Assembly: GCF_036365525.1 (NCBI RefSeq) | Contig: NC_090395.1 | Coordinates: forward strand, 65,187,326-65,251,325 | Length of the DNA stretch: 64,000 bases | Reading direction: 5' to 3' | Source of the DNA: Heterodontus francisci | Taxonomy: Eukaryota | Part shown: positions 46,901 to 62,416 of the stretch, in pieces | Layout: the number at the start of each line of letters is the position of its first letter | Numbering within the stretch: the first letter of the stretch is position 1 | The notes under the pieces: model-generated | Databases searched by the model: none | What the model was told of the DNA's origin: nothing | What the model saw: the letters and a program-made list of their open reading frames with translations, nothing else | Translations under genes and position numbers: made by a program

Positions 46901-48199
46901 TTTTCTAAACTCTAGAACCTTTTTAAAAAGGTTCTATTCATGGGAAGTGGGGTATTGCTGGCAAGGCCAGCATTTATTGCCATCCCTAACTGTCCTTAAG
47001 GTGGTGGTGAGTCACATTCTTGAACCCCTGCAATTCTTGTGTAGGTTCACCCACAGTTTTTCTTTGAGCTTCTTTAAATAATTTTGTTGTTTTTAAAACA
47101 TCAAAGAATATGATTGGAAAGAAGGATTCAACCAGACCAGAAAACAAAAGCATTACTTTCTCTGTAATTTTTGATTTGTTTCATGCATACAAGCCCCTCT
47201 TCTTGCCTCCCCCATTTTCTTTAGTCTCATAGTCTTCAGGTGAATTGAGACTCTGACTTATCATCCCCCTCCAATAACATATATACAGTTCTCTTAACCT
47301 TTAGTCTCTTCCCTGCCCCCCAACTAAAACATCCAGATACAGAATAATTTTCAGAACCCTGATAAACTAAGGTTCTGGTAATTTACAAGGTCTACTAAAA
47401 GAATATTTCTCAGCAACTTTGCAAACCACTTAAATTCAACAAAATCAGATGCCAAACAAAACCAATCCACTTTTTAAAAAAACATTTTCAACTTAGTGCA
47501 TCTTAATGACAGGAAAGTTTAACTGTCTTAGACAGAAGATGCTGGAAATACAGGAGGCTAATAAGAGCTGAAGGACAAAGGCAATGATGCAACATCCGAT
47601 GAGGTTCAAAGGTGAAGGATGTAATGAAAAGAAAGGTACGTGAGGTAGATCAACAACAAAATGGACTTAATAGTTGTTTCTGGTTCAAAATTCTGTGTTT
47701 TTCTTGGCCTATTCAAAACTCGGATGGGATGCAAGCAACTCTAATCCCTGCCCTATCCCCCAAACTGCAACCCCATCTCTCTTGTTCTTTACGTTTCAGG
47801 GAGTTCTCCAAATCTATGTGGAAATTTTTGCACGTTGTGATTGAATTTTCCATTGCCAATTTTTGTTCCTAATGTGGGTTCAGAGTTAAACTCTTGATGC
47901 TTTACAAAAAACATTAACAAGGGTGCATTTGGTGTTTTTGTCATTCTTTCTCTTCACTTGCCAATGAAATCCAGCAAAAATGTGGAATTTTTTTTTGTTC
48001 TGTCCGGGAAGATTAAGAGCACAGGGAGAATTCAAGTGAAAATAAAGAAAAATAAAATTTCAAAGTGCATTCAGACTCAGAAAACCTGGTTTTAATAGAT
48101 CTCTGGCATACATCTTATTTCTTGTAGATCAATTATTAAGAATAATTTTGGAATGCTTGAAATACAAATATATATAGAAATGATGGAATATTTATAGGG

Positions 48200-48416: not shown

Positions 48417-48588
48417 CTAGGATCTGAATGCCAGTGTAGAATATTCAACTGATTCTGAAGAATTGATCTTGATATCTCTCTTTTCCTTTTCCAAATCCTT
48501 CAAATTGGTGTAAGTTGCAGAACTTCCCTCCGTTTGAGCAGAAGGTTGAATGGTCACAGTGGAATAAATGATCGTATCTTCAGCTTCC
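48417..48588 (-). CDS. Receptor terminal exon EAEDTIIYSTVTIQPSAQTEGSSATYTNLKDLEKEKRDIKINSSESVEYSTLAFRS*
   Basis: tttaacag| acceptor, phase 2. ITIMs IIYSTV and VEYSTL plus an ITIM-like/YxN motif ATYTNL. TAG at 48419-48417. Confidence 0.85.
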
Positions 48589-51500
48589 CTGTTAAACTAA
48601 AATAAATACACCATTTAAATGCTTGAAGCTCTGTAAAGGTGATCCAACAAAGTATGTACATTGAGCTAATTACATTTCAATCAGAAATCGAGTCAGTTTC
48701 AATGCATATATTAGCTGGCTCTGACATTTAGCATTTCCAGCAGAATTTGGTTTGCACCCTGTTTTGTTTCTATCAAGTGGATTGTTCTGGACCTCTGTTC
48801 TCCAGTATATTGACAGCTTGCTGATTTTAAATGATTGAATATCATTAAAAGACTGGAGATTTCACTATGAAGGAAATCTTGCATGAAAACTATACTGCTT
48901 TCATTTTGATGTATAAAGCATTATGCTGGTGTAATACTTTAAAGTGAAGGTGTTGGGTTGGCTGAGCACTGCAACAAAGTGCCATCACCATGGTGGGTGA
49001 GTGTACATGAGCACATAGATGTACATACAGCAGAAGTGTGGTAAATTGTGTGAGCTCTTTGAGCAGTGTCACAATCATCCTCTCCTCTTGCTTCAGGGGC
49101 CTTTATGAAAAGTGCCAATCTGCGTGAATATGCAGTTAAAACTGAGTCTAGCAAAGAAGCTTGCATTAAGCAGCAAGACCAGCTGTGCAGATACATTTAG
49201 CTTGCATCTCAGATCATTGCTGTAACTGTGTCAGTGGTATAGTAGATCTGTATCTCTTCTATATCTCTAATATGATGCATGTATCAACATCAGCTTTTGT
49301 GCACTGTGTAATATATCACTAGAAGTCTTATAATTATTACACAAGCCCAGCGATGATAAGCACAGAAAAGAGTCATAGATTTCCATGACTCTAAGCTTAA
49401 TCTATTAAAATCTGTATTGGCAAGGGTATACTGTGGTTGCTTTTCTGAGTAGAAGGAAAAGAAGAAGCAACAGAAAAGTTGGCATAGGCTGATATAAAAT
49501 TGGCGAGAATGGTTTGTAGGATGCCGATGAATGCATATGTGGGTAAGGCAGAGGGATAATTCTAAAAGTACAAACATTCATAAAGACCAGCTGACCCAAT
49601 AAACCTGTCCCATACTGATTGCCCACAGTGTCTCATAGATGCCCAGTTTTGAGCTGCTTGATCTGTTCTGAACTTATCACATTTGGCACGGTGGTAGTGC
49701 CATGCAACACGATAGCAGGTATCGTCAGTGTGTAGAGGGAGCTTTGTCTCCATGTGGATTGTGCGATGGTCACTCGCACTATGCTGTCATGGATACATGC
49801 ATCTGCAACAGGTAGATTGGTAAGAGTGAGGTCTGATAGGTTTTTCCCTCTTGTTGGTTCCCTCACCACCTGCTGCAGGCCCAGTCTGTCAGATATGTCC
49901 TTCAGGAGTCAGCTCGTTCAGGCAATAATGGTGCTTCCGAGTCACTCTTGGTGATGGGCATTGAAGTCCCCCATCCAGAGTACATTCTGTGCCCATGCTA
50001 CTCAAATAGCCTATCCACATTATTTTAAAAGACTTCAATGATATCTCCCCCCAGTCAGTTCATTTCTAGCTATGATCTTTGAACTCAGAAGCAAGAGTTC
50101 TAACCACTGAACCATGGCTGACACCTGCTCTCAGTTCCTATTGGTCTCAGTATTAAAAACAACCAACTTACTTTTTAATTCACTACCCTTACTTCAAATA
50201 CCTAACTCAGATTTTAGTTCTTAAAATGAAGCTTTTGTTAAAATACATCTTATGAAAATGCAACAATAGTGCTGTTTGTGCTTAAATTTAACAATTACTG
50301 ATCTACTAAGTGTAGAATAATTGAGAAAATCCCCAGAGTTTGCAACAGTTCCTTGAACCTACCTTTGATATTCAGCTGTTGTCATAATATCACCAGTTTG
50401 TATTTCATGTTTAATATAGATTTACTTTTATTCTCTCTCTTTCTTTCAGTGCCTGTCTGGCTTAACAACCTAGAAAATGACTCTAACTGTTCCTGTCTGT
50501 CACTTGCAATAAACTCAGTTCCATCTCTAGAAAAAAGTCCCACCGGCCATGGTACCTAAGGGTCTTTAAACTGAGATCAACCTTGTGACCCTCTAAAGCT
50601 TTTCCAGGACATCTATATCACCTAACATGTGGGTGAACCAACATTTGGACACTGTATTCTAGATGGGGTCTTACCAAGGTCTCGTACAAGGATTGTATAT
50701 TGTTTTAAATTTTGTACCTGATCAATGCATCCTAGGAGTCTCTCTGCTTTTGTTATAGCCTCATGGCATTGGTAATGAACCTTCAAAGCTTTAACAGCAA
50801 CAATAAATTGTATTTATAGAGCACCTTTAACGTAAGAAAATATCCCAAGGCCCTTCACAGGAGCATTAGAAAACAAAATATGACGCTGACCAGATAAGGA
50901 GATATTAGGTCAGATGACCAAAAGCTTGGCCAATGAAGTAGGTTTTAAGGAGTGGCTTAAAGGAGGCAAGTGAGGTAGAGAGGCAGAGAGGTGTAGGAAG
51001 GCAATTCCAGAGCTCGGGGCCTAGGTGACTGAAAGTACGGCCACCAAAAGTGGAGCGATTAAAATTGGGATGCTCGAGGCCAGAATTAGATGAGCATGGG
51101 TATCTCGGAGGGTTGTAGGACTGGAGGAGATTACAGAGATAGGGAGGGGGCGAGGCCATGGAGGGATTTGAAAACGAGGATGGAAATTTTAAAATCAAGG
51201 TGTTGCTTGACTGGGAGCCGGTGTAGGTCAGCAAGCACACGGGTGATAGGTGAATGGGACTTGGTATGAGTTAAGACACAGGCAGCAAAGTTTTGAATTA
51301 CATCAAATCTATGGAGAGTATAATGCGAGAGATCAATGAGGCATGAATGAGGGTTTCAGCAGCAGATGAGCTGAGACAGGGGTGAAGTCGGCAATGCTAC
51401 ACATGTGGAAATATGTGGTCTTAGTGATGGCGTGAATAGGAGGTCGGAAGCACATGTCTGGGTCAAATATGACATCAAGGTTGCGAATAGGCTGGTTTAA

Positions 51501-54500
51501 TCTCAGACTGTTGCCAGGGAGATGCTTGGAGTCAATAGCTAGGGAACGGTGCTTACAGCAGGGACCAAAAACAATGGCTTCAGTCCTCCCAATATTTGAT
51601 TGGTAGACGTTTCAGTTCACCCAGTACTGGATGTTGGGTAAACAGTTTGATAATTTGGCAACAGTGGAGGAGCTGATAAAGGTGTGGTGAGGTAGAACTG
51701 GGTGTTGTCAGCTACATGTGAAAACTAACTCTCTGTTTTCGAATTGACGTGCAATGACACTAGTTCTTTCTCTCACTTGACTGCATTTGCAACTCCACGT
51801 AATGCACCCATGCTTGATCTGATCCCGATCCATAATACTCCATTTATTTCTATTAAGTGACCTGTCATTGCTTCATCACATATAGATTTGCTTGTATTCT
51901 ATTTTTCATCTCAATATCTCCATCACATAAAGATGGCAGAAAGCAACAGCTTTAACACAAATCCCTGTTTGACTCCACGAGTAACTGATCCGCACTTAGA
52001 AATAGTGTCACTAATAATGGTCTTCTGCCTACAAAGATGCAACTAATTCTATACCAAACCCCATATCTACCCACTGATCCCATGCAACTGTATTTTGTTA
52101 GAGTCTATCATGTACACCTTGTCAAAATCTTTGAAAACCAAGGTATCCAATTACAATAAAAGCAAAATACTGCGGATGCTGGAAATCTGAAATAAAAACA
52201 AGAAATGCTGGAACCACTCAGCAGGTCTGGCAGCATCTGTGGAAAGAGAAGCAGAGTTAACGTTTCGGGTCAGTGACCCTTCTTCGGAACGCTGACGCCA
52301 TTGCCGGGACAGACATCCACGTGATCGGGAGGGGGAGTCGACCCACCCTGGCTATTTAAATGAGCTGCCGTGCATAGCTTCAGCACCCCAAATGCAGGGA
52401 GAGAAGAATTGGCCAGAATTTCTGCCCCAGATGCTATCCAGTAATTCCTGTTAGATGTTCTATTCGTGGACATTGGGTGCGAACAGGATAAGCCTTGGCT
52501 GTGGTACCCACTGCAGTTGATTAGCCTGCTGATATTCACTGCCTAGGCTTGTGTGAAAAACGGCCAATTGGCTGAGGTGCGAAAGGGCAAACAGTGGCAA
52601 TTGTGTTTTAACAAAGCGTCAGTGTCTTGAGAAGGAGGGGGAGAGAAAGGAAATAAAGAATTGAGTGCCTGTAATTTTGTAAACTGCATGGAATTACTGC
52701 AAATTCGGCTACGGTGGTGAATGCTGGAATGAAATGACTCAGGATCTCACACGATATTTTGTTCCATTGGATGGTGAATTTTAATGGAGTTCCCTCTCTC
52801 CCCAATCCCATGTGTTGGAATGGAAAGATTGCTTTAATCATTATACTTCTCATTAAATTTTTATATTGCTTATACGTCAAATAAATACCTACAAAGTTGT
52901 CCAAAATAGGTTTGGTGCGAGGGGCGAAATGTTCTTGGTTGGGTCACAATCCCAACGTCGGCTACAATGCAGGGTGGGGAACTCTGAATTGGCTGTGGCG
53001 GGATGTTGGTCGCAATCTTCCTGGAGGCGTTCAATTAAGAATCCGCCTCCAGGAGCCCCATCCCATTAAGGGCAGACCATGGAAGCGGGAGGTCCAATAG
53101 GAGGACTTGCAGCAATATCCGGTTGGCAGTCCCACTGGGAAAGGTGGGGGATACTGAGGCAGGCAAGAGGCTGTGACGGTGCCTCAAGATGGAGGCGCTC
53201 TCTGCAGCATCGGAAAAAGTTAAAGATTGCGCATGGCCACAGTTGTAAGGCCATCAATGTGAAAGTGGAGCCCCTCCACAGGAAGGCCTGCAGCCCCGGC
53301 TGTGGCCGTCGCATCCCTGTGGATCTGTGCTGGAGTGGAGGCGTAGATGGACACCCCCCCGGCTCTAATTGCCTGCTGTCTCCAGCCTCAATGGGGGATG
53401 GTGTGGTGGGGTGGGGGGAGCCCTTCTGCTGTTGGGAAGATCCCGGCTGCTCCATCACCTTTCCCCCAAATGGCACCTTAATGAGCCTAATCGACTACCT
53501 GCCACTGCCTTGCAGGTAGCTTCTGCCACATAGACTCTGCCTTGGGCAAGAGCGCTTGGAAGTGGGAGTGCATCTGATAGCCAACACAACGCACTATTTT
53601 GCAGCTTTACTCCTAGTTCTGCTTCCTAGCCCTCCTCTGCGGAACTGGGTAAATATAGCCCATCTATGTGTCTCTGATTAGAAAGTAGTTATTTTCTATT
53701 TTATATCAATTTTAATATTGTACTATTGCACTGTTCCATTTGCCTATTTATTTCAGAAAAATGTTTTCCTTGCTACTTACCCCCATTTCCGGTTGTTTTC
53801 GGCCTTTTCTTTCTCCGTATAAATAGAACCAGCACAGCTGCGAGGATGATGTACCATATTTTTTGGGCAGTATTACTAAAATATTGAAGTAGAATAGTTG
53901 AAACTAAGGCTTTGTACAGACAATAAAATAAGGGAAAACAATGCTTAGTTGTTTGAACTAAATAGAAGAATCGGTCTTTACTGTAATTATCCCTGAGCTA
54001 TGTTCTGGTGAGACTAGCTCTCACTGAGGGTGCACTGCAGCAACTTGCCAAGGCTTCTTGGACAACACCTTCTAAACCTACGACCTCTACCTCCTAGAAG
54101 GACAAGGACAGCAGGTGTATGGGAGCACCATCAACTTCAAGTTCCTGTCCGAAACACATTATCCTGACTTGGAAATATATCACCATTCCTTCACCATTGC
54201 TGGGTCAAAGTCCTGGAACTCCCTACCTAACAGCACTGTGGGAGCACCTTCACCACATGGACTGCAGCGGTTCAAGATGGCGGCTTATCTTCATCTTCTC
54301 AAGGGCAATTTGGGATGGGCAATAAATGTTGACCTAGCCAATGATGCTCAGATCCAATGAATGAATAAAACTGAGTGTTTTCCATGTTGGAAGGAAATCA
54401 GAAGAAAGTAGTAATGCATATCTCTCATAGGATTGCCGAATAAACCATTATTGCTAGGGCCTGGAAAAATTCTGCTTCCTGATTTTTGAAATGATTGTAT

Positions 54501-57500
54501 TAAACGGGGAAACAATTAACAAGAATTATGAGGAAATGTACAGCACTATGAAGGATGTGTGGACTGTGGTAGGTTTAAAGACGTCAGCATTGCTTAGCAT
54601 AACTCGTGAGGGCAGCAGAATTATTTATTGATTGTGACTTCAATCAAAATGACTCAAAAATTGTTATTTTGAAGACAACTATTAAATCTTACCTTGTGAT
54701 ATTGCTGGGATCTGTTGGCCTTCCGATTGTCACTAGGAGATTTGTTAAAGTAAACAAAACACCTCGATAAATAACTGATCGCAATCCACAACACAACTTT
54801 TATCTTCATTAAAACTTACATTACTTAAGAAGATGAACGCGATGGACGTGTGGGGGCGGGTGAGCGGCAGAGGGGACATATTTTATTCAGTCTGAACATT
54901 GGCTGATTTCATTTCCTTAGGCCAATTGGTCAAATTCTGGATGAATGAACAAAGATGGATTGACCAGACTTCTTTGTCCTTCCAAATCCGCTACCTCTAC
55001 TACCTAGAAGGACAAGGGCAGCAGATGCATTGGGAACACCACCACGTGCAGTTTCCCCTCCAAGGCACACACCATCCTGACTTGGGACTATAATCGCCGT
55101 TTCTTCACTGTTGTTGGGTCAATGTCCTGGAACTTCCTTCCTGCCAGCACTGTTGGTGTACCTACACCCCAAGGATTGCAGCAGTTCAAGAAGGCAGCTC
55201 ACCACCATCTTCTCAAGGGCAATTCGGGATGGCCAATAAATTCTGGCCTAGTCAGCGATGCCACATCCCATGAACGAATAGTAACAAAAAATGCCATGTA
55301 ATCTTGTGAAAAGGCAGTCTGAGGAAAAGCTGGATTCAGTTAGTGGGAGAAATGACACACGCATTTTATAAAGGGGCTAACAGTGTTAGAGACTCAACAC
55401 TCTGTGAGGTGTAGCACAACCTTTCCATTTATTTTTATGAAGGTACTAGTGTACGTTTCTAAACTGTTTCTGGACTTTTATCCCATTTTTCTATGTACTT
55501 CTGGCCTGGCGCCACTGTTAAGAGGATGGGTGAACAGCTTGTTCTGAGACCACCATCAATGATCACTTTAATCAGCCACCAGGGGCGGAATTTTCTCAGC
55601 TTTAAAAGTTTCCAGACACTGGGTCCAATTCCAGGTCCTGACCCCACTCGCTTCTGCAGTACGCCTTCCAAAGCAATCTTATGGGAGATGGTCAATTAAG
55701 AGGCTGCTTTCACATTCACCATCCAATTAAGGTTGGCAAGCAGGGTGCTGAGGCAGGAGGCCCAATGAGAGAGCCCCGAGCACAGGATGCCCAGCAGCCC
55801 CACAGGAAGAGGTGGGGATTGGGAGGGCGCCTCAAAATGGAGACGCTCTCGAAAGCCTGCTGGAGGGCCAGTCCTCTTGCGCTTGGTGTGCTCTCATTGG
55901 GCTTCCTGCCTCGGCAACCCACTTGCCATCCTTAATTGGATGGTGTATGCAGAAGCGGCCTCTTAATTAGCTGTTAGAGCCATCAGTGTGGTGGGGGGGA
56001 GCCCCTTCACAGGATTGATTGTGGCCGCAGCTGGAGCCCTTTCATCCATACAGCTCAGTGATTGGGGGATTGAGAGGAGGCTCCAATGGCTCCTGGGCCT
56101 GCTGCCAGGAGGCCGCTTCCAAGTAGTTGCTGGGCACCGGCCTCAGTGGTGTCCGGCCCGACACCAGGAACATGCCGGCGGCTTCTGAAAATGGCCCCTA
56201 AATGCGGCCTTTAGGTGTCTGAAACCACCTAGATATGACTCCACCCTCTGATACTTTTCTCCCCTGTGTAGGGAAATACTACTCAATTTCTCGCTGGCCA
56301 GTGTGGGAAAACTCAAAATGGGAGAGAATTTACGACAGAGCTGCGTCAATATATTTGCCACTGAATGGAGCTGCTCTCCCTCCCCCCATAAACTGACTGA
56401 GATACAGCACTGGACCAGCGACTGAAATAAACAGGAATAATCCTGTCTTCATTGACTTCCCATCCTCACATTGTATTCATTGAAAGTGATTCCAACACAT
56501 GTTTTATGTCCAGGTTAAGATGTCAATTAATCTAAATTTTTTGAATTCTATGTCTTGCCGCAAACAATAATATAATTAAACTTTATCGTACAATATGTAT
56601 GAGCGACATACCATCCTGACTTGGGAATATTATTTTGTTCCCTCACTGTCAGTGGGTTAAGATTCTGGAACTCCCTACACCAGAAGGACTGCAGTGGTAC
56701 AAGAAAGTAGCTCTCTACCACCTTCTCGAGGGCAATTAGGGGTTGGGCAATAAATGCTGGCCTTGCCAGCGATGCCCACATCCCACGGCTGAATGAAAAA
56801 AAAAGATGCAGAGATGTTTCCACTTACTGGGGCGGTGGGGGGTGGGGGGGGGGGGTGTTGCGAGGTGGCAGTGGGCAGTGGTGATGGTGGTGGGGAACCA
56901 AACCTAAGGAATTCAGGGAAAAAAGTTCTTTACCCAGAGAGTTGTTGGAACGTGGAACTCACTACCACAAGGAATAGTTGTTATGAATCGCACAGATGCA
57001 TTTAAGGGGAAGGGAGATGAGGAAAGGAATAGAAGATATGCTGAAAAGGTCTGATGAAGTAGGGTGGAAGGATGCCCATGTGCAGCATAAGCACTGGCAT
57101 TTGACCCATTGTTACATAGAGCTTACAGCACAGAAACAGTGAATTATCACAATTTTATATTGATTCTTACCTTCAGCAATTGTCAGGACTTTAACCTGTG
57201 TGATCTCTATGTCAAGTATTTTTTCTCTTCCACACCAGTACTCCCCTTTATCTCCTTTACTAACGCTGCTCATGGTAACAGCAAAATTATGATCATTGTT
57301 AGTAGTGATTGAAACTCTTCCATTATACAGACTTCCTATAACTCCATTAGAGCTGGCTATAATGGTGCACTTATCTTCAGAGGTTACTTTACACAGGAAT
57401 TTCTTATAGTATTTATACTGCTTTGAGTACAGACATGGTACAGTGGTGGCATTTCCCATTATGCCATTGACCTCTGATAGGATTGGTTCCCAAGAATCTG

Positions 57501-60500: not shown

Positions 60501-62416
60501 CCCTGAAGAACAACAGTCCTGGTGTTATTGCAACCAGATCACATTATCAGCCCTATAATCTTTTGAAAAATTCTTACCTGTGAAAACTTTCAGTAATATA
60601 ACATCTGAAATACTGATAGAAGTCTCATGTTTTGGTCCACAGAAGTAAGTTCCTGTGTCTGTCTCCTGAAGTTGTGTTATGGTAACAGAAATCAATCCAT
60701 TGGCATTAGTGATCGATGTTCTTCTGTCATAATTCCTGTCCATATATTTGTTTGTGCTCATTATAATATTGCACCAAGTTTTGGAATTTGCTTTACACCA
60801 GATTACAGAGTTTTGGATCCCTGCCTGTGGACATTCCACAGTGACTGTTTCTCCCACTGCAGCTTTCACCACTGTTGATGCAGTTTGTGTCCGCAAAGCT
60901 GTTGGGTGAAATTTAACATTTTAAGAAAGCTGGAAATATCACAACGATCAATTTTAGTCAATCCTTTTGGCACATCACAGATAACAAATGCAAATGCTTC
61001 ATCAGGGGGCAAAAGAAGTCCTGAAAGGGACTGGAATCAGAGAATCTTACAGAAGGGACCATTCAGCCCTTCGTGCCTGTGCCAGCTCTTCGAAAAGCTG
61101 TCCAACTTAATCCCACAACCCAACTCTTCTTCATAACTTTGCACATTAGTTCTCTTCAACTGCCTTTTGAAAATTCTTATGGAATCTGATTCCACCGCCC
61201 TTTTAAGCATTCCCGATCATAACAACCTTACTTGGGAAATAATTTCTCCTGCTGTCTCCTCTAATTCTTTTGCCAGTTATTTTATATCTATGACCTCTGG
61301 TTACCTACCCACATACCAGAGGAAACAGTTTCTCCCTATTTGCTCTATCAAAACCCTTCATAATTTCAATACCTCTATTAGCTTTCCCATTAACCTTCTC
61401 TGCTCCAAGGACAATAATACCAGCTTCTCCAAATAACTGAACTCCCTCATCCCTATTATCATCCTGGTAAACCTCTTCTGTACCATTTGCCAGGGCCTTG
61501 ATATCCTTTCTAAAGTGCAGTGCCCAGAATCGAACACAATACTCCAACTGAAACCAAGCCAGTGATTAGTAAAGGTTTAGCATGACTTCTTGTTTTTGCA
61601 TTCAATGGCTCGATTAGCAAACCCAAGTATTCCATAACTGCCTTACCATCTTGCCCTGCCATGTTCAAGGATTGTAAATATGCACCCCAAGCTCCCTCTG
61701 CTCTTACATCCCCCACAATATTGTACCATTTAGGTAATACTGCGCCTCCAAGTTGTTCCGGCCAAAGTGCATCACTTCATACTTATCCACATTAAATTGT
61801 ATCTGCCATGTGCCTGCCCATTTTGCCATTCTTTCTACATCCTCCTGTTACTATCCTGATTTTCACCCTACCAGATAGACAGTGATGAGGTTGGCAGACT
61901 GGCTGCCACCATTATTTAAAGGGGCCTTCCCTTGCATGGCAGGAGCAAGCACATGTTTTGTGCAATAGGCCTCTTTGTTATTCAAATCGTACTTACCCAT
62001 TCACATTCTTGTAATGTTCGACAGTATTCCTCCGTTCCCCTCCCTGAGGGAACTCGCTATTAGTATAGCTCAAATTTCTGGTGCATTGTCTCCTCCCTTT
62101 GCCTCACCATTGAGGGCTGCATTTTCAATTAAGTCCAACTTTCTGGAATTCTATCGCTAAACCCCTCCTCCTTGTCAACTCGCTGATCTCCTTTAAGACC
62201 CTCTTTAAAGCCCATCTCTTTTACCAAGCTTTTGGTCACCCCCCACAAACTCTCCTCCTTTAGCTCAATGGCTGTATTTCTTCACTCCTCTATGAAAATC
62301 TTTGAGACATTTTTCTATGCTGAAGGCACTACATAAATTCAAGTTGTTGTTTCAAATATATCATTGATAATCTTACTTGATATCAAAGTGAGGAACAGCA
62401 GAGCAATGAACTTCAT
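48417..62416 (-). CDS. CD300/pIgR/TREM-family (CMRF35-like) receptor with two IgV domains and an ITIM-bearing terminal exon; the cytoplasmic junction is unresolved and possibly disrupted
   Basis: Leader 62416-62377, IgV1 60898-60578, IgV2 57497-57171, stalk 54732-54693 and TM 53875-53781 splice in frame with GT-AG sites. ITIM exon is 48588-48417. Confidence 0.85.
49632..50000 (-). mobile_element. CR1-clade LINE endonuclease fragment
   Basis: GDFN and VREPTRGKNLSDLTLTN on the - strand. Confidence 0.8.
50363..50469 (-). pseudogene. Putative cytoplasmic exon, apparently frame-disrupted (..GTERKRENKSKSIL / HEIQTGDIMTTAEYQ)
   Basis: cattttctag| acceptor and AG|gtaggt donor. The 3' end is in the correct phase for the ITIM exon, but all three frames contain stops. 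Confidence 0.45.
50795..51740 (-). mobile_element. L2 LINE 3' fragment inserted into an older CR1 remnant (about 50520-50790 and 51745-52150)
   Basis: ORF 50905-51240 RSTFGGRTFSHLGPELWNCLP...LASFKPLLKTYF is the L2 C-terminus. Confidence 0.85.
52155..52290 (-). mobile_element. Young Penelope-like terminal fragment with hammerhead motif
   Basis: The - strand reads gtt-CCGAAGA-agggtcactgaccc-GAAA-cgtt-aac...ttttgcttttatt. Confidence 0.88.
52920..53661. mobile_element. GC-rich MITE-like element
   Basis: ggggcgaaatgtt...aaatatagccc ends; caattaag/cttaatg internal motifs. Confidence 0.5.
53781..53875 (-). CDS. Receptor transmembrane exon NTAQKIWYIILAAVLVLFIRRKKRPKTTGNG
   Basis: ttttag| acceptor and G|gtaagt donor; hydrophobic run followed by the RRKKR stop-transfer cluster. 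Confidence 0.85.
54035..54368 (+). mobile_element. CR1-clade LINE 3' fragment (further copies at 46940-47060 -, 54980-55280 +, 56605-56800 +)
   Basis: AGSKSWNSLPNSTVG...HLLKGN 3' end shared with the 62618 element. Confidence 0.85.
54693..54732 (-). CDS. Receptor stalk exon VTIGRPTDPSNIT(S)
   Basis: ctcctag| acceptor and AG|gtaaga donor; phase 1 to 2 bridges IgV2 and TM exactly; P/T/S-rich with an NIT sequon. Confidence 0.8.
55583..56336. mobile_element. GC-rich MITE-like element
   Basis: TIR gggcggaattttctc / gagagaatttacgac; internal inverted repeat accatccaattaagg / ccttaattggatggt. Confidence 0.65.
57171..57497 (-). CDS. Receptor IgV domain 2 (DSWEP...VPCLY...KKFLCKVTSEDKC...GRVSI...DKGEYWCG...LTIAE)
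   Basis: 327-nt phase 1-1 exon with 4 Cys and the GRVSI and DxGxYWCG motifs. Confidence 0.93.
58640..60320 (-). mobile_element. CR1-clade LINE, RT to 3' end, in a receptor intron
   Basis: KATGPD, NYRPISLLS, VPQG, DD motifs; frameshifted. Confidence 0.92.
60578..60898 (-). CDS. Receptor IgV domain 1 (TLRTQ...VGETVTVEC...WCKANSKTWC...DTGTYFC...LKVFT)
   Basis: 321-nt phase 1-1 exon. Canonical V-set Cys/Trp/DxGxYxC plus the extra C-x7-C pair typical of CD300/pIgR/TREM. Confidence 0.93.
61040..61850 (-). mobile_element. CR1 3' fragment
   Basis: EYCVRFWALHFRKD on the - strand. Confidence 0.8.
62100..62350 (+). mobile_element. L2 3' tail fragment
   Basis: Same tail as the 3500-3711 region (ataaattcaagttgttg). 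Confidence 0.7.
62377..62416 (-). CDS. Receptor exon 1: signal peptide MKFIALLFLTLIS
   Basis: ggaaccATG Kozak context, hydrophobic core, phase-1 A|gtaaga donor that joins IgV1 in frame. Confidence 0.88.

What the first reader, a model, noticed from the sequence alone, without database searches (positions are those of the whole stretch)
48417..53875. The ITIM tail cannot be reached in frame: inhibitory-to-tailless conversion or early pseudogenisation
Seen: the TM exon ends in phase 1 and the ITIM exon starts in phase 2. Direct splicing gives GKLKIRSFIPL*. The obvious intervening exon (50469-50363) gives GC* from its strong acceptor, or GTERKRENKSKSILNMKYKLVIL* from the internal AG at 50454-50453. 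Adding one nt in the AAA run near 50411 would restore ...SILKHEIQTGDIMTTAEYQREAEDTIIYSTV. Known: activating or decoy members of paired-receptor families (e.g. short-tailed KIRs) arise from inhibitory ancestors by tail truncation while ITIM-coding DNA persists. Inference: this is a recent truncation, a polymorphic allele or an assembly indel.
Basis: partly seen in the sequence, partly recalled or inferred. Interest (0 to 1): 0.7.

Follow-up and report, generated by a model that had tools for sequence, protein, structure and literature searches.

The report
Shark receptor exon absent from assembly
This shark immune-receptor gene only looks tailless: its spliced transcripts carry a 41-base exon that the genome assembly lacks, which keeps the likely inhibitory tail in frame, so it is an ordinary receptor whose real oddities are that missing exon (likely a deletion allele or an assembly loss) and a membrane anchor shortened by eight residues.

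Summary
The gene is a two-V-domain pIgR/CD300-like receptor on the minus strand. The last exon starts at 48596 in phase 0, not 48588 (contigs, orthologues, two paralogues). Its 'middle exon' 50469-50363 is not spliced in; it lies in a 457-bp segment copied on C11 with the same spacing, so no base is missing at 50411. Spliced contigs from runs with the assembly's sample label leave the TM exon into a 41-nt phase 1-to-0 exon homologous to the linker of other sharks, keeping the ITIM tail in frame (6 of its 41 letters unseen). A 25-mer of that exon is absent from the window and from G000 (control found). So the assembled sequence lacks an exon: a deletion haplotype (about 0.55) or an assembly loss (about 0.35); unresolved. 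No direct TM-to-last-exon contig was laid. Found in passing and real: an in-frame 8-codon TM deletion (14 uncharged residues versus 22-26 in 10 other species). Low interest.

The parts
62377..62416 (-). Leader exon (coding part, ATG at 62416), phase 1 donor
   Evidence: Sequence; matches P0003/P0007
60578..60898 (-). Ig V domain 1 exon
   Evidence: Pfam V-set E 5e-14; spliced contigs X6, X9, X10 (tables 5, 8)
57171..57497 (-). Ig V domain 2 exon
   Evidence: Pfam V-set E 7e-10; contigs X5, X6 with 0 other letters
54693..54732 (-).
   Evidence: Joints 54732-57171 in 4 of 4 runs and 53875-54693 in 3 of 4 runs (table 5)
53781..53875 (-). TM exon, 95 nt, phase 2 to 1; lacks 8 codons of the hydrophobic core near 53817-53828 (14 uncharged residues)
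   Evidence: Contigs X5, X6 carry the same 95 nt; alignment with orthologues
48597..53780 (-). Interval that should hold the 41-nt phase 1-to-0 linker exon; the exon is not in the assembly, exact place unknown
   Evidence: Loose end before 53777 in X5 and X6 (table 7); length bookkeeping; 0 matches in window and G000
50072..50528 (.).
48417..48596 (-). Last exon, phase 0 start (FNREAED...), two consensus ITIMs (IIYSTV, VEYSTL) and one non-consensus tyrosine motif (ATYTNL), stop at 48419-48417
   Evidence: Contigs align through 48598; 67-80% identity to five orthologues over 97-100% of it

Best explanation
The gene is a transcribed, likely inhibitory pIgR/CD300-like receptor (leader, V, V, stalk, TM, 41-nt linker exon, ITIM exon) whose spliced transcripts keep the tail in frame through a linker exon that is absent from the assembled sequence, likely because the assembled haplotype carries a deletion or the assembly lost the piece. 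Shown: exon order, phases, the linker exon in contigs, its absence from G000, the 8-codon TM deletion. Inferred: that ligand binding leads to phosphorylation of the two ITIM tyrosines and recruitment of SHP-1/SHP-2-type phosphatases (established ITIM mechanism, recalled); that the 14-residue helix still anchors the protein but probably less stably or with more retention in ER/Golgi; that the exon is missing through a real deletion (about 0.55), an assembly loss (about 0.35) or a collapsed near-identical copy (about 0.1).
For: One 844-nt contig of X5 runs from the last exon to V1 with 174 letters between 48598 and 57171: stalk 40 + TM 95 + 39 unplaced + 2 shared = a 41-nt exon, phase 1 to 0. 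Its letters at the TM donor are the same in X5 and X6 (table 7) and read by hand as ..IENTEPPIK.., against GNNENPEPPITVSK (P0009), GNNQNPESPITISK (P0029), GKNENPESPTLTSK (P0030), each a 14-codon linker before F(D/N)RE. The next paralogue has TM phase 1, a strong-site 53-nt phase 1-to-0 exon and a phase 0 last exon. Depth bookkeeping in X6 leaves room for one spliced exit from the TM exon (353.2 versus 353.1; second junction about 0) and X5 has one. Exons match the assembly with 0 other letters in X5/X6, and the locus is single-copy in G000, so the contigs are from this gene. 25-mer of the exon: 0 matches in the window at 3 mismatches, 0 in G000 at 0 and 2 mismatches; a window 25-mer as control was found once. 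Six orthologous linker peptides find no convincing match in the intron's six frames (best scores 21-31 of self scores 69-77; 5 of 6 within shuffles).
Against: 6 of the 41 letters were not seen (one uncertain among the first four, five near the end), so one codon is unread; the last codon cannot be TAG because alignments stop at 48598. The runs are labelled RNA only by guess (their CT..AC joints show splicing); X5 and X6 are one sample and one study; contigs drop rare variants. The two RefSeq-named isoforms (P0007 ...GNGV, P0003 ...IRSFIPL) both skip the linker, and whether reads support those joints could not be seen. In X6 depth falls from 740 on the TM contig to 353 on the junction contig, which the laid contigs do not explain. 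The DNA run X1 gave no cover over the TM region, so the cause of the absence is untested. One linker (P0010) scored above 100 of 100 shuffles at 48799 (score 31 of 72), taken as chance among six tries.
Confidence: 0.85

Rival explanations
1. Segregating exon-deletion allele that is expressed: the assembled haplotype really lacks the linker exon and splices TM to 48596, making a tailless membrane decoy (...GNGV*) beside the inhibitory allele.
For: No N in the window; P0007 has exactly this end; the stop would lie in the last exon, so exon-junction decay is not expected (established rule, recalled); contigs differ from the assembly at 47793 (X5 and X6) and 53898 (X6), as if read from another haplotype; depth halves after the TM in X6.
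Against: No direct TM-to-last-exon contig in X5 or X6, although 30-letter overlaps were laid and depths add up without it. No DNA evidence for two haplotypes.
Confidence: 0.2
2. Pure assembly loss: both chromosomes carry the exon and the reference dropped a piece of this repeat-rich intron; RefSeq's tailless isoforms are forced models.
For: Only linker-bearing exits from the TM exon are seen in two runs of the same sample label; the intron is full of high-copy repeats (table 2).
Against: No gap letters mark a loss; low-depth intron contigs match the assembly over 48569-49337, 51493-52168, 52261-52811 and 52874-53810 with 1 difference in all, so any loss is confined to the unbridged parts.
Confidence: 0.35
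3. One reading: 50469-50363 is the real middle exon, broken by a recent 1-nt loss near 50411 (truncation, pseudogenisation or indel error).
For: It has the best donor of the intron by a rough weight matrix (6.2) and its 3' part is open into acceptor 48588.
Against: Intron-level depth; same spacing in the C11 copy, which lacks the AG and has GC for GT; no exon-specific conservation (p 0.28); no likeness to orthologous linkers (scores 7-15); wrong acceptor and phase.
Confidence: 0.02
4. The gene is decaying for another reason: the 8-codon TM deletion leaves a helix too short for the plasma membrane, so the protein is secreted, retained or degraded and the later loss of the linker exon is neutral.
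For: 14 uncharged residues, best 19-residue hydropathy 1.69 versus 3.08-3.49 in 7 orthologues; 12-14 residues is about the minimum for insertion (PMC4796907, Discussion); plasma-membrane TMDs are longer than ER/Golgi ones (PMC2928124, passages).
Against: The helix is almost wholly I/L/V/F/W and followed by RRKKR; V exons, stalk and last exon are open and expressed; the deletion is in frame.
Confidence: 0.15

Closest known systems
pIgR-like / CMRF35-like (CD300-like) receptors of sharks and rays as named by NCBI (P0009 Heptranchias, P0029 Pristiophorus, P0030 Carcharodon, P0005 Mustelus, P0002 Scyliorhinus, P0010-P0013 rays)
   Same: V-V-stalk-TM-linker-tail layout, about 40-60% identity, near-identical tyrosine motifs, 14-codon linker in three of them
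   Different: TM is 8 residues shorter than in all 10 other species with an ITIM-tailed TM form; linker exon missing from this assembly
Mammalian CD300a/CD300f and pIgR ectodomains
   Same: Best solved-structure matches: pIgR E 3.5e-38, CD300f (CMRF35-like molecule 1) E 7e-11; extra Cys-x7-Cys pair in both V domains (motif recalled; seen in P0007)
   Different: Two V domains; ITIM-type tail like CD300a/f rather than the sorting tail of pIgR (recalled); ligand untested
Modular domain immune-type receptors (MDIR) of clearnose skate
   Same: Cartilaginous-fish multigene family similar to CD300/TREM/pIgR with activating and inhibitory members (PMC3031540, passages); this cluster has 16 V hits within 0.65 Mb, ITIM tails and Arg-bearing TMs
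   Different: No MDIR sequence was compared, so orthology is untested
Short-tailed KIR and other tail-truncated paired receptors (recalled)
   Same: A deletion allele here would also leave ITIM-coding DNA out of frame
   Different: No charged TM residue, so no adaptor coupling expected; the tailless form was not seen in contigs

Membership tests
CD300/pIgR-like Ig superfamily receptor | V-set Ig domains most similar to pIgR/CD300 | tested here: met
CD300/pIgR-like Ig superfamily receptor | Second disulfide (Cys-x7-Cys in C/C' strands; feature recalled) | tested here: met
   P0007: WCKANSKTWC and LCKVTSEDKC
CD300/pIgR-like Ig superfamily receptor | Type I layout: leader, ectodomain, one TM helix | tested here: inconclusive
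   Layout present, but the TM has only 14 uncharged residues; insertion untested
ITIM inhibitory receptor | (I/V/L/S)xYxx(L/V) motifs in frame in the cytoplasmic tail (consensus recalled) | tested here: met
   IIYSTV and VEYSTL in frame through the 41-nt exon in contigs; not in frame through canonical sites of the assembly
ITIM inhibitory receptor | Phosphatase recruitment and inhibition | not testable with these tools
   needs cell assay
Activating member of a paired family | Charged residue in the TM | tested here: not met
   IWYIILAAVLVLFI has none; paralogues L035, L036 have IFRW
Tail-truncated (decoy) receptor | Transcripts that end the frame after the TM | tested here: not met
   No such contig in X5 or X6; contigs can drop minor forms
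True pIgR | Binds and transcytoses polymeric Ig | not testable with these tools
   Name is by similarity only; ITIM tail argues against
MDIR | Orthology to skate MDIR2-4 | not tested

The most novel reading that the evidence does not exclude
A shark CD300/pIgR-like inhibitory receptor caught mid-change: a recent 8-codon deletion has cut its membrane helix to 14 residues, and a segregating deletion of the linker exon yields a second, tailless decoy allele, so one animal would carry an inhibitory and a signal-dead form of the same receptor.
Probability: 0.2. Interest if true: 0.45.

Novelty: new member of a known kind. Interest (0 to 1): 0.2.

Why it matters
Mainly as a correction: the reference and both RefSeq-named isoforms lack the tail, so this gene would be scored as tailless in surveys of shark paired receptors although its transcripts encode both ITIMs. 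If the missing exon is a real deletion allele, it is one more small case of tail loss in a paired-receptor cluster, here in a cartilaginous fish. The natural 14-residue TM helix is a ready test of how short an anchor a surface immune receptor tolerates.

Tried and rejected
Enumerated AG..GT segments in the TM-to-tail intron for phase 1-to-2 (319 candidates) and phase 1-to-0 or 39-43 nt exons with a rough recalled weight matrix: none fits the transcribed exon; the top scorers lie in repeats. Weak in-frame routes (acceptor 48583, score -5.9; micro-exon 50375-50363, acceptor -4.3; a donor 4 nt downstream of the TM donor, -3.3) were not seen in contigs. C11 region (40 kb): no pIgR-like gene (one tblastn hit E 0.05). 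No RNA holder is on record as RNA in the run search. Table 5 showed 15 of 551 joints and table 7 showed 24 of 3917 loose ends, so it could not show or exclude a direct TM-to-last-exon joint. Two look-ups of earlier findings returned nothing. Three literature searches on shark pIgR-like/CD300/MDIR receptors (6, 6 and 8 papers listed, listings only except PMC3031540) showed no paper on this gene; the library lacks most subscription papers. No structure prediction was run: it would not bear on the question.
Full report
The gene. The minus strand holds a leader exon (62416-62377), two Ig V-set exons (60898-60578, 57497-57171; Pfam), a 40-nt stalk exon (54732-54693), a 95-nt TM exon (53875-53781) and a last exon ending at 48417. 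Two proteins in the public collection are this locus, named pIgR-like isoforms X1 and X2 of Heterodontus francisci (P0007, P0003; 100% to the V2 exon, contig length equal to C25). Best solved-structure matches are pIgR and CD300f. Sixteen of 17 V-domain hits in G000 lie within 0.65 Mb on C25, with two more ITIM tails and two Arg-bearing short-tailed TM exons: a paired-receptor cluster. The gene's TM, V2 and last exons are single-copy in the assembly.

Check of the observation. But its acceptor is wrong. Contigs of X5, X9 and X10 align to the last exon through 48598, i.e. acceptor 48596 preceded by an exon ending in AG (table 8). From 48596 the exon reads FNREAEDTIIYSTV in phase 0; orthologues read K|FDREAED and the two paralogous last exons start in phase 0 at the same position. 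With this acceptor the direct join gives GNGV*, the end of P0007, and stalk-to-last-exon gives the end of P0003.

The proposed middle exon is not one. 50469-50363 lies in a 457-bp segment 85% identical to a place on C11 that holds no receptor gene. Identity is 97 of 105 inside and 302 of 342 outside (p 0.28). The C11 copy has neither the AG nor the GT and has the same spacing around 50411, so no base was recently lost there and no assembly indel is needed. Contig depth over that bin is at intron level, and its peptide scores 7-15 against six orthologous linkers.

What the transcripts do. An 844-nt contig of X5 (depth 136) spans last exon to V1 with 174 letters between 48598 and 57171; stalk and TM take 135, leaving a 41-nt exon with the shared AG, phase 1 to 0. 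Laying X5 and X6 on the TM region shows the same loose letters at the TM donor (table 7); read by hand in the TM frame they give ..IENTEPPIK.., two codons and xAG, matching the 14-codon linkers of Heptranchias, Pristiophorus and Carcharodon. Six letters are unseen. The neighbouring paralogue has a 53-nt phase 1-to-0 exon in the same place. In X6 the depths in three bins are fully accounted for by the TM contig, the stalk contig, two intron contigs and one junction contig of depth 353; a second spliced exit has depth about 0. X5 and X6 carry the sample code of DNA runs marked as a possible source of the assembly, are RNA by guess only, and count as one sample and one study. X10, from a related organism 97-98% alike, also has an in-frame total (65 = 41 + 24).

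The exon is not in the assembly. A 25-mer of it has 0 matches in the window (3 mismatches allowed) and 0 in G000 (0 and 2 mismatches), while a window 25-mer is found once. The window has no N. Whether the assembled haplotype has a deletion or the assembly lost the piece could not be decided: the DNA run gave no cover there. For a real deletion: no gap letters, RefSeq's X1 joint, non-reference letters at 47793 and 53898 in the contigs. For a loss: no direct TM-to-last-exon contig, which an expressed deletion allele should give. My rough odds are 0.55 deletion haplotype (expressed as a tailless form: 0.2 overall), 0.35 assembly loss, 0.1 collapsed copy; these are judgement, not computation.

The oddity that is real. 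The TM exon lacks 8 codons (the GLLILxLx stretch of orthologues). The uncharged run is 14 residues against 22-26 in the ITIM-tailed TM forms of 10 other shark and ray species (of 37 proteins held, isoforms counted once per species, charged-TM and tailless forms and one TM-skipping isoform left aside); best 19-residue hydropathy is 1.69 against 3.08-3.49 in the 7 compared. X5 and X6 carry the same short exon, so it is not an assembly error. X10 is 24 letters longer and differs at 53817 and 53828, either side of the deletion point, so the loss is probably recent; the inserted letters themselves were not displayed. PMC4796907 (abstract, opening text and Discussion read) puts the minimum for insertion at about 12-14 strongly hydrophobic residues; PMC2928124 (passages) shows plasma-membrane TMDs are longer than ER/Golgi ones. 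The helix is therefore predicted to be borderline: probably inserted, helped by RRKKR, perhaps poorly displayed.

Mechanism and comparison. The transcribed product works most likely as a CD300a/f-like inhibitory receptor with two consensus ITIMs (mechanism recalled, untested). It is not an activating member (no TM charge). MDIRs of skate are the nearest described cartilaginous-fish family (PMC3031540, passages), but orthology was not tested. Three searches listed no paper on this gene; supplements were not opened.

Verdict. The claimed conversion is not what the transcripts show; the reference lacks one small exon. Ordinary receptor, one annotation correction, one modest TM oddity. Interest 0.2.

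Noticed in passing
window 53817-53828 (TM exon): In-frame loss of 8 codons from the TM helix, present in assembly and transcripts, absent from 10 other species and probably from the related organism B.
   Followed up: yes
window 50072-50528 and G000:C11:16012108-16012565: A two-copy 457-bp segment, 85% alike, ending in what reads as a SINE head and sitting inside an old CR1-like LINE with similar 15-16 nt stretches on both flanks (possible transduction with target-site duplication; repeat types recalled).
   Followed up: partly
X6 junction contig at 53777: It ends 29 letters into the linker exon, as expected if another exon ending in G (V2 or stalk) also joins the linker: a TM-skipping, possibly soluble isoform like Mustelus P0004.
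   Followed up: no
G000:C25:65296797-65296880 and 65321267-65321359 (L036, L035): Two TM exons with an arginine (IFRW) and almost no tail: likely activating partners in the same cluster.
   Followed up: partly
G000:C25:65265559-65270700 and 65384670-65392580: Two further ITIM-tailed paralogues with normal-length TMs; the second's linker exon was not identified with confidence.
   Followed up: partly
window about 5000-28500, + strand: Exons of an adenosylhomocysteinase-family gene (Pfam AdoHcyase and AdoHcyase_NAD), tail to tail with the receptor, bounding the cluster on this side.
   Followed up: no
window 47793 and 53898: Single-letter differences between contigs of X5/X6 and the assembly (3' UTR and intron), usable to phase alleles.
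   Followed up: no
window 49620-50005: What reads as an internal LINE endonuclease fragment with no 3' end, butted against the cut CR1-like copy (recalled, unsearched); it lies in a part not bridged by the listed contigs and is one candidate place for the missing piece.
   Followed up: no
P0001, P0002, P0005, P0012: Orthologues vary from two to eight V domains through tandem repeats of the V-V unit.
   Followed up: no
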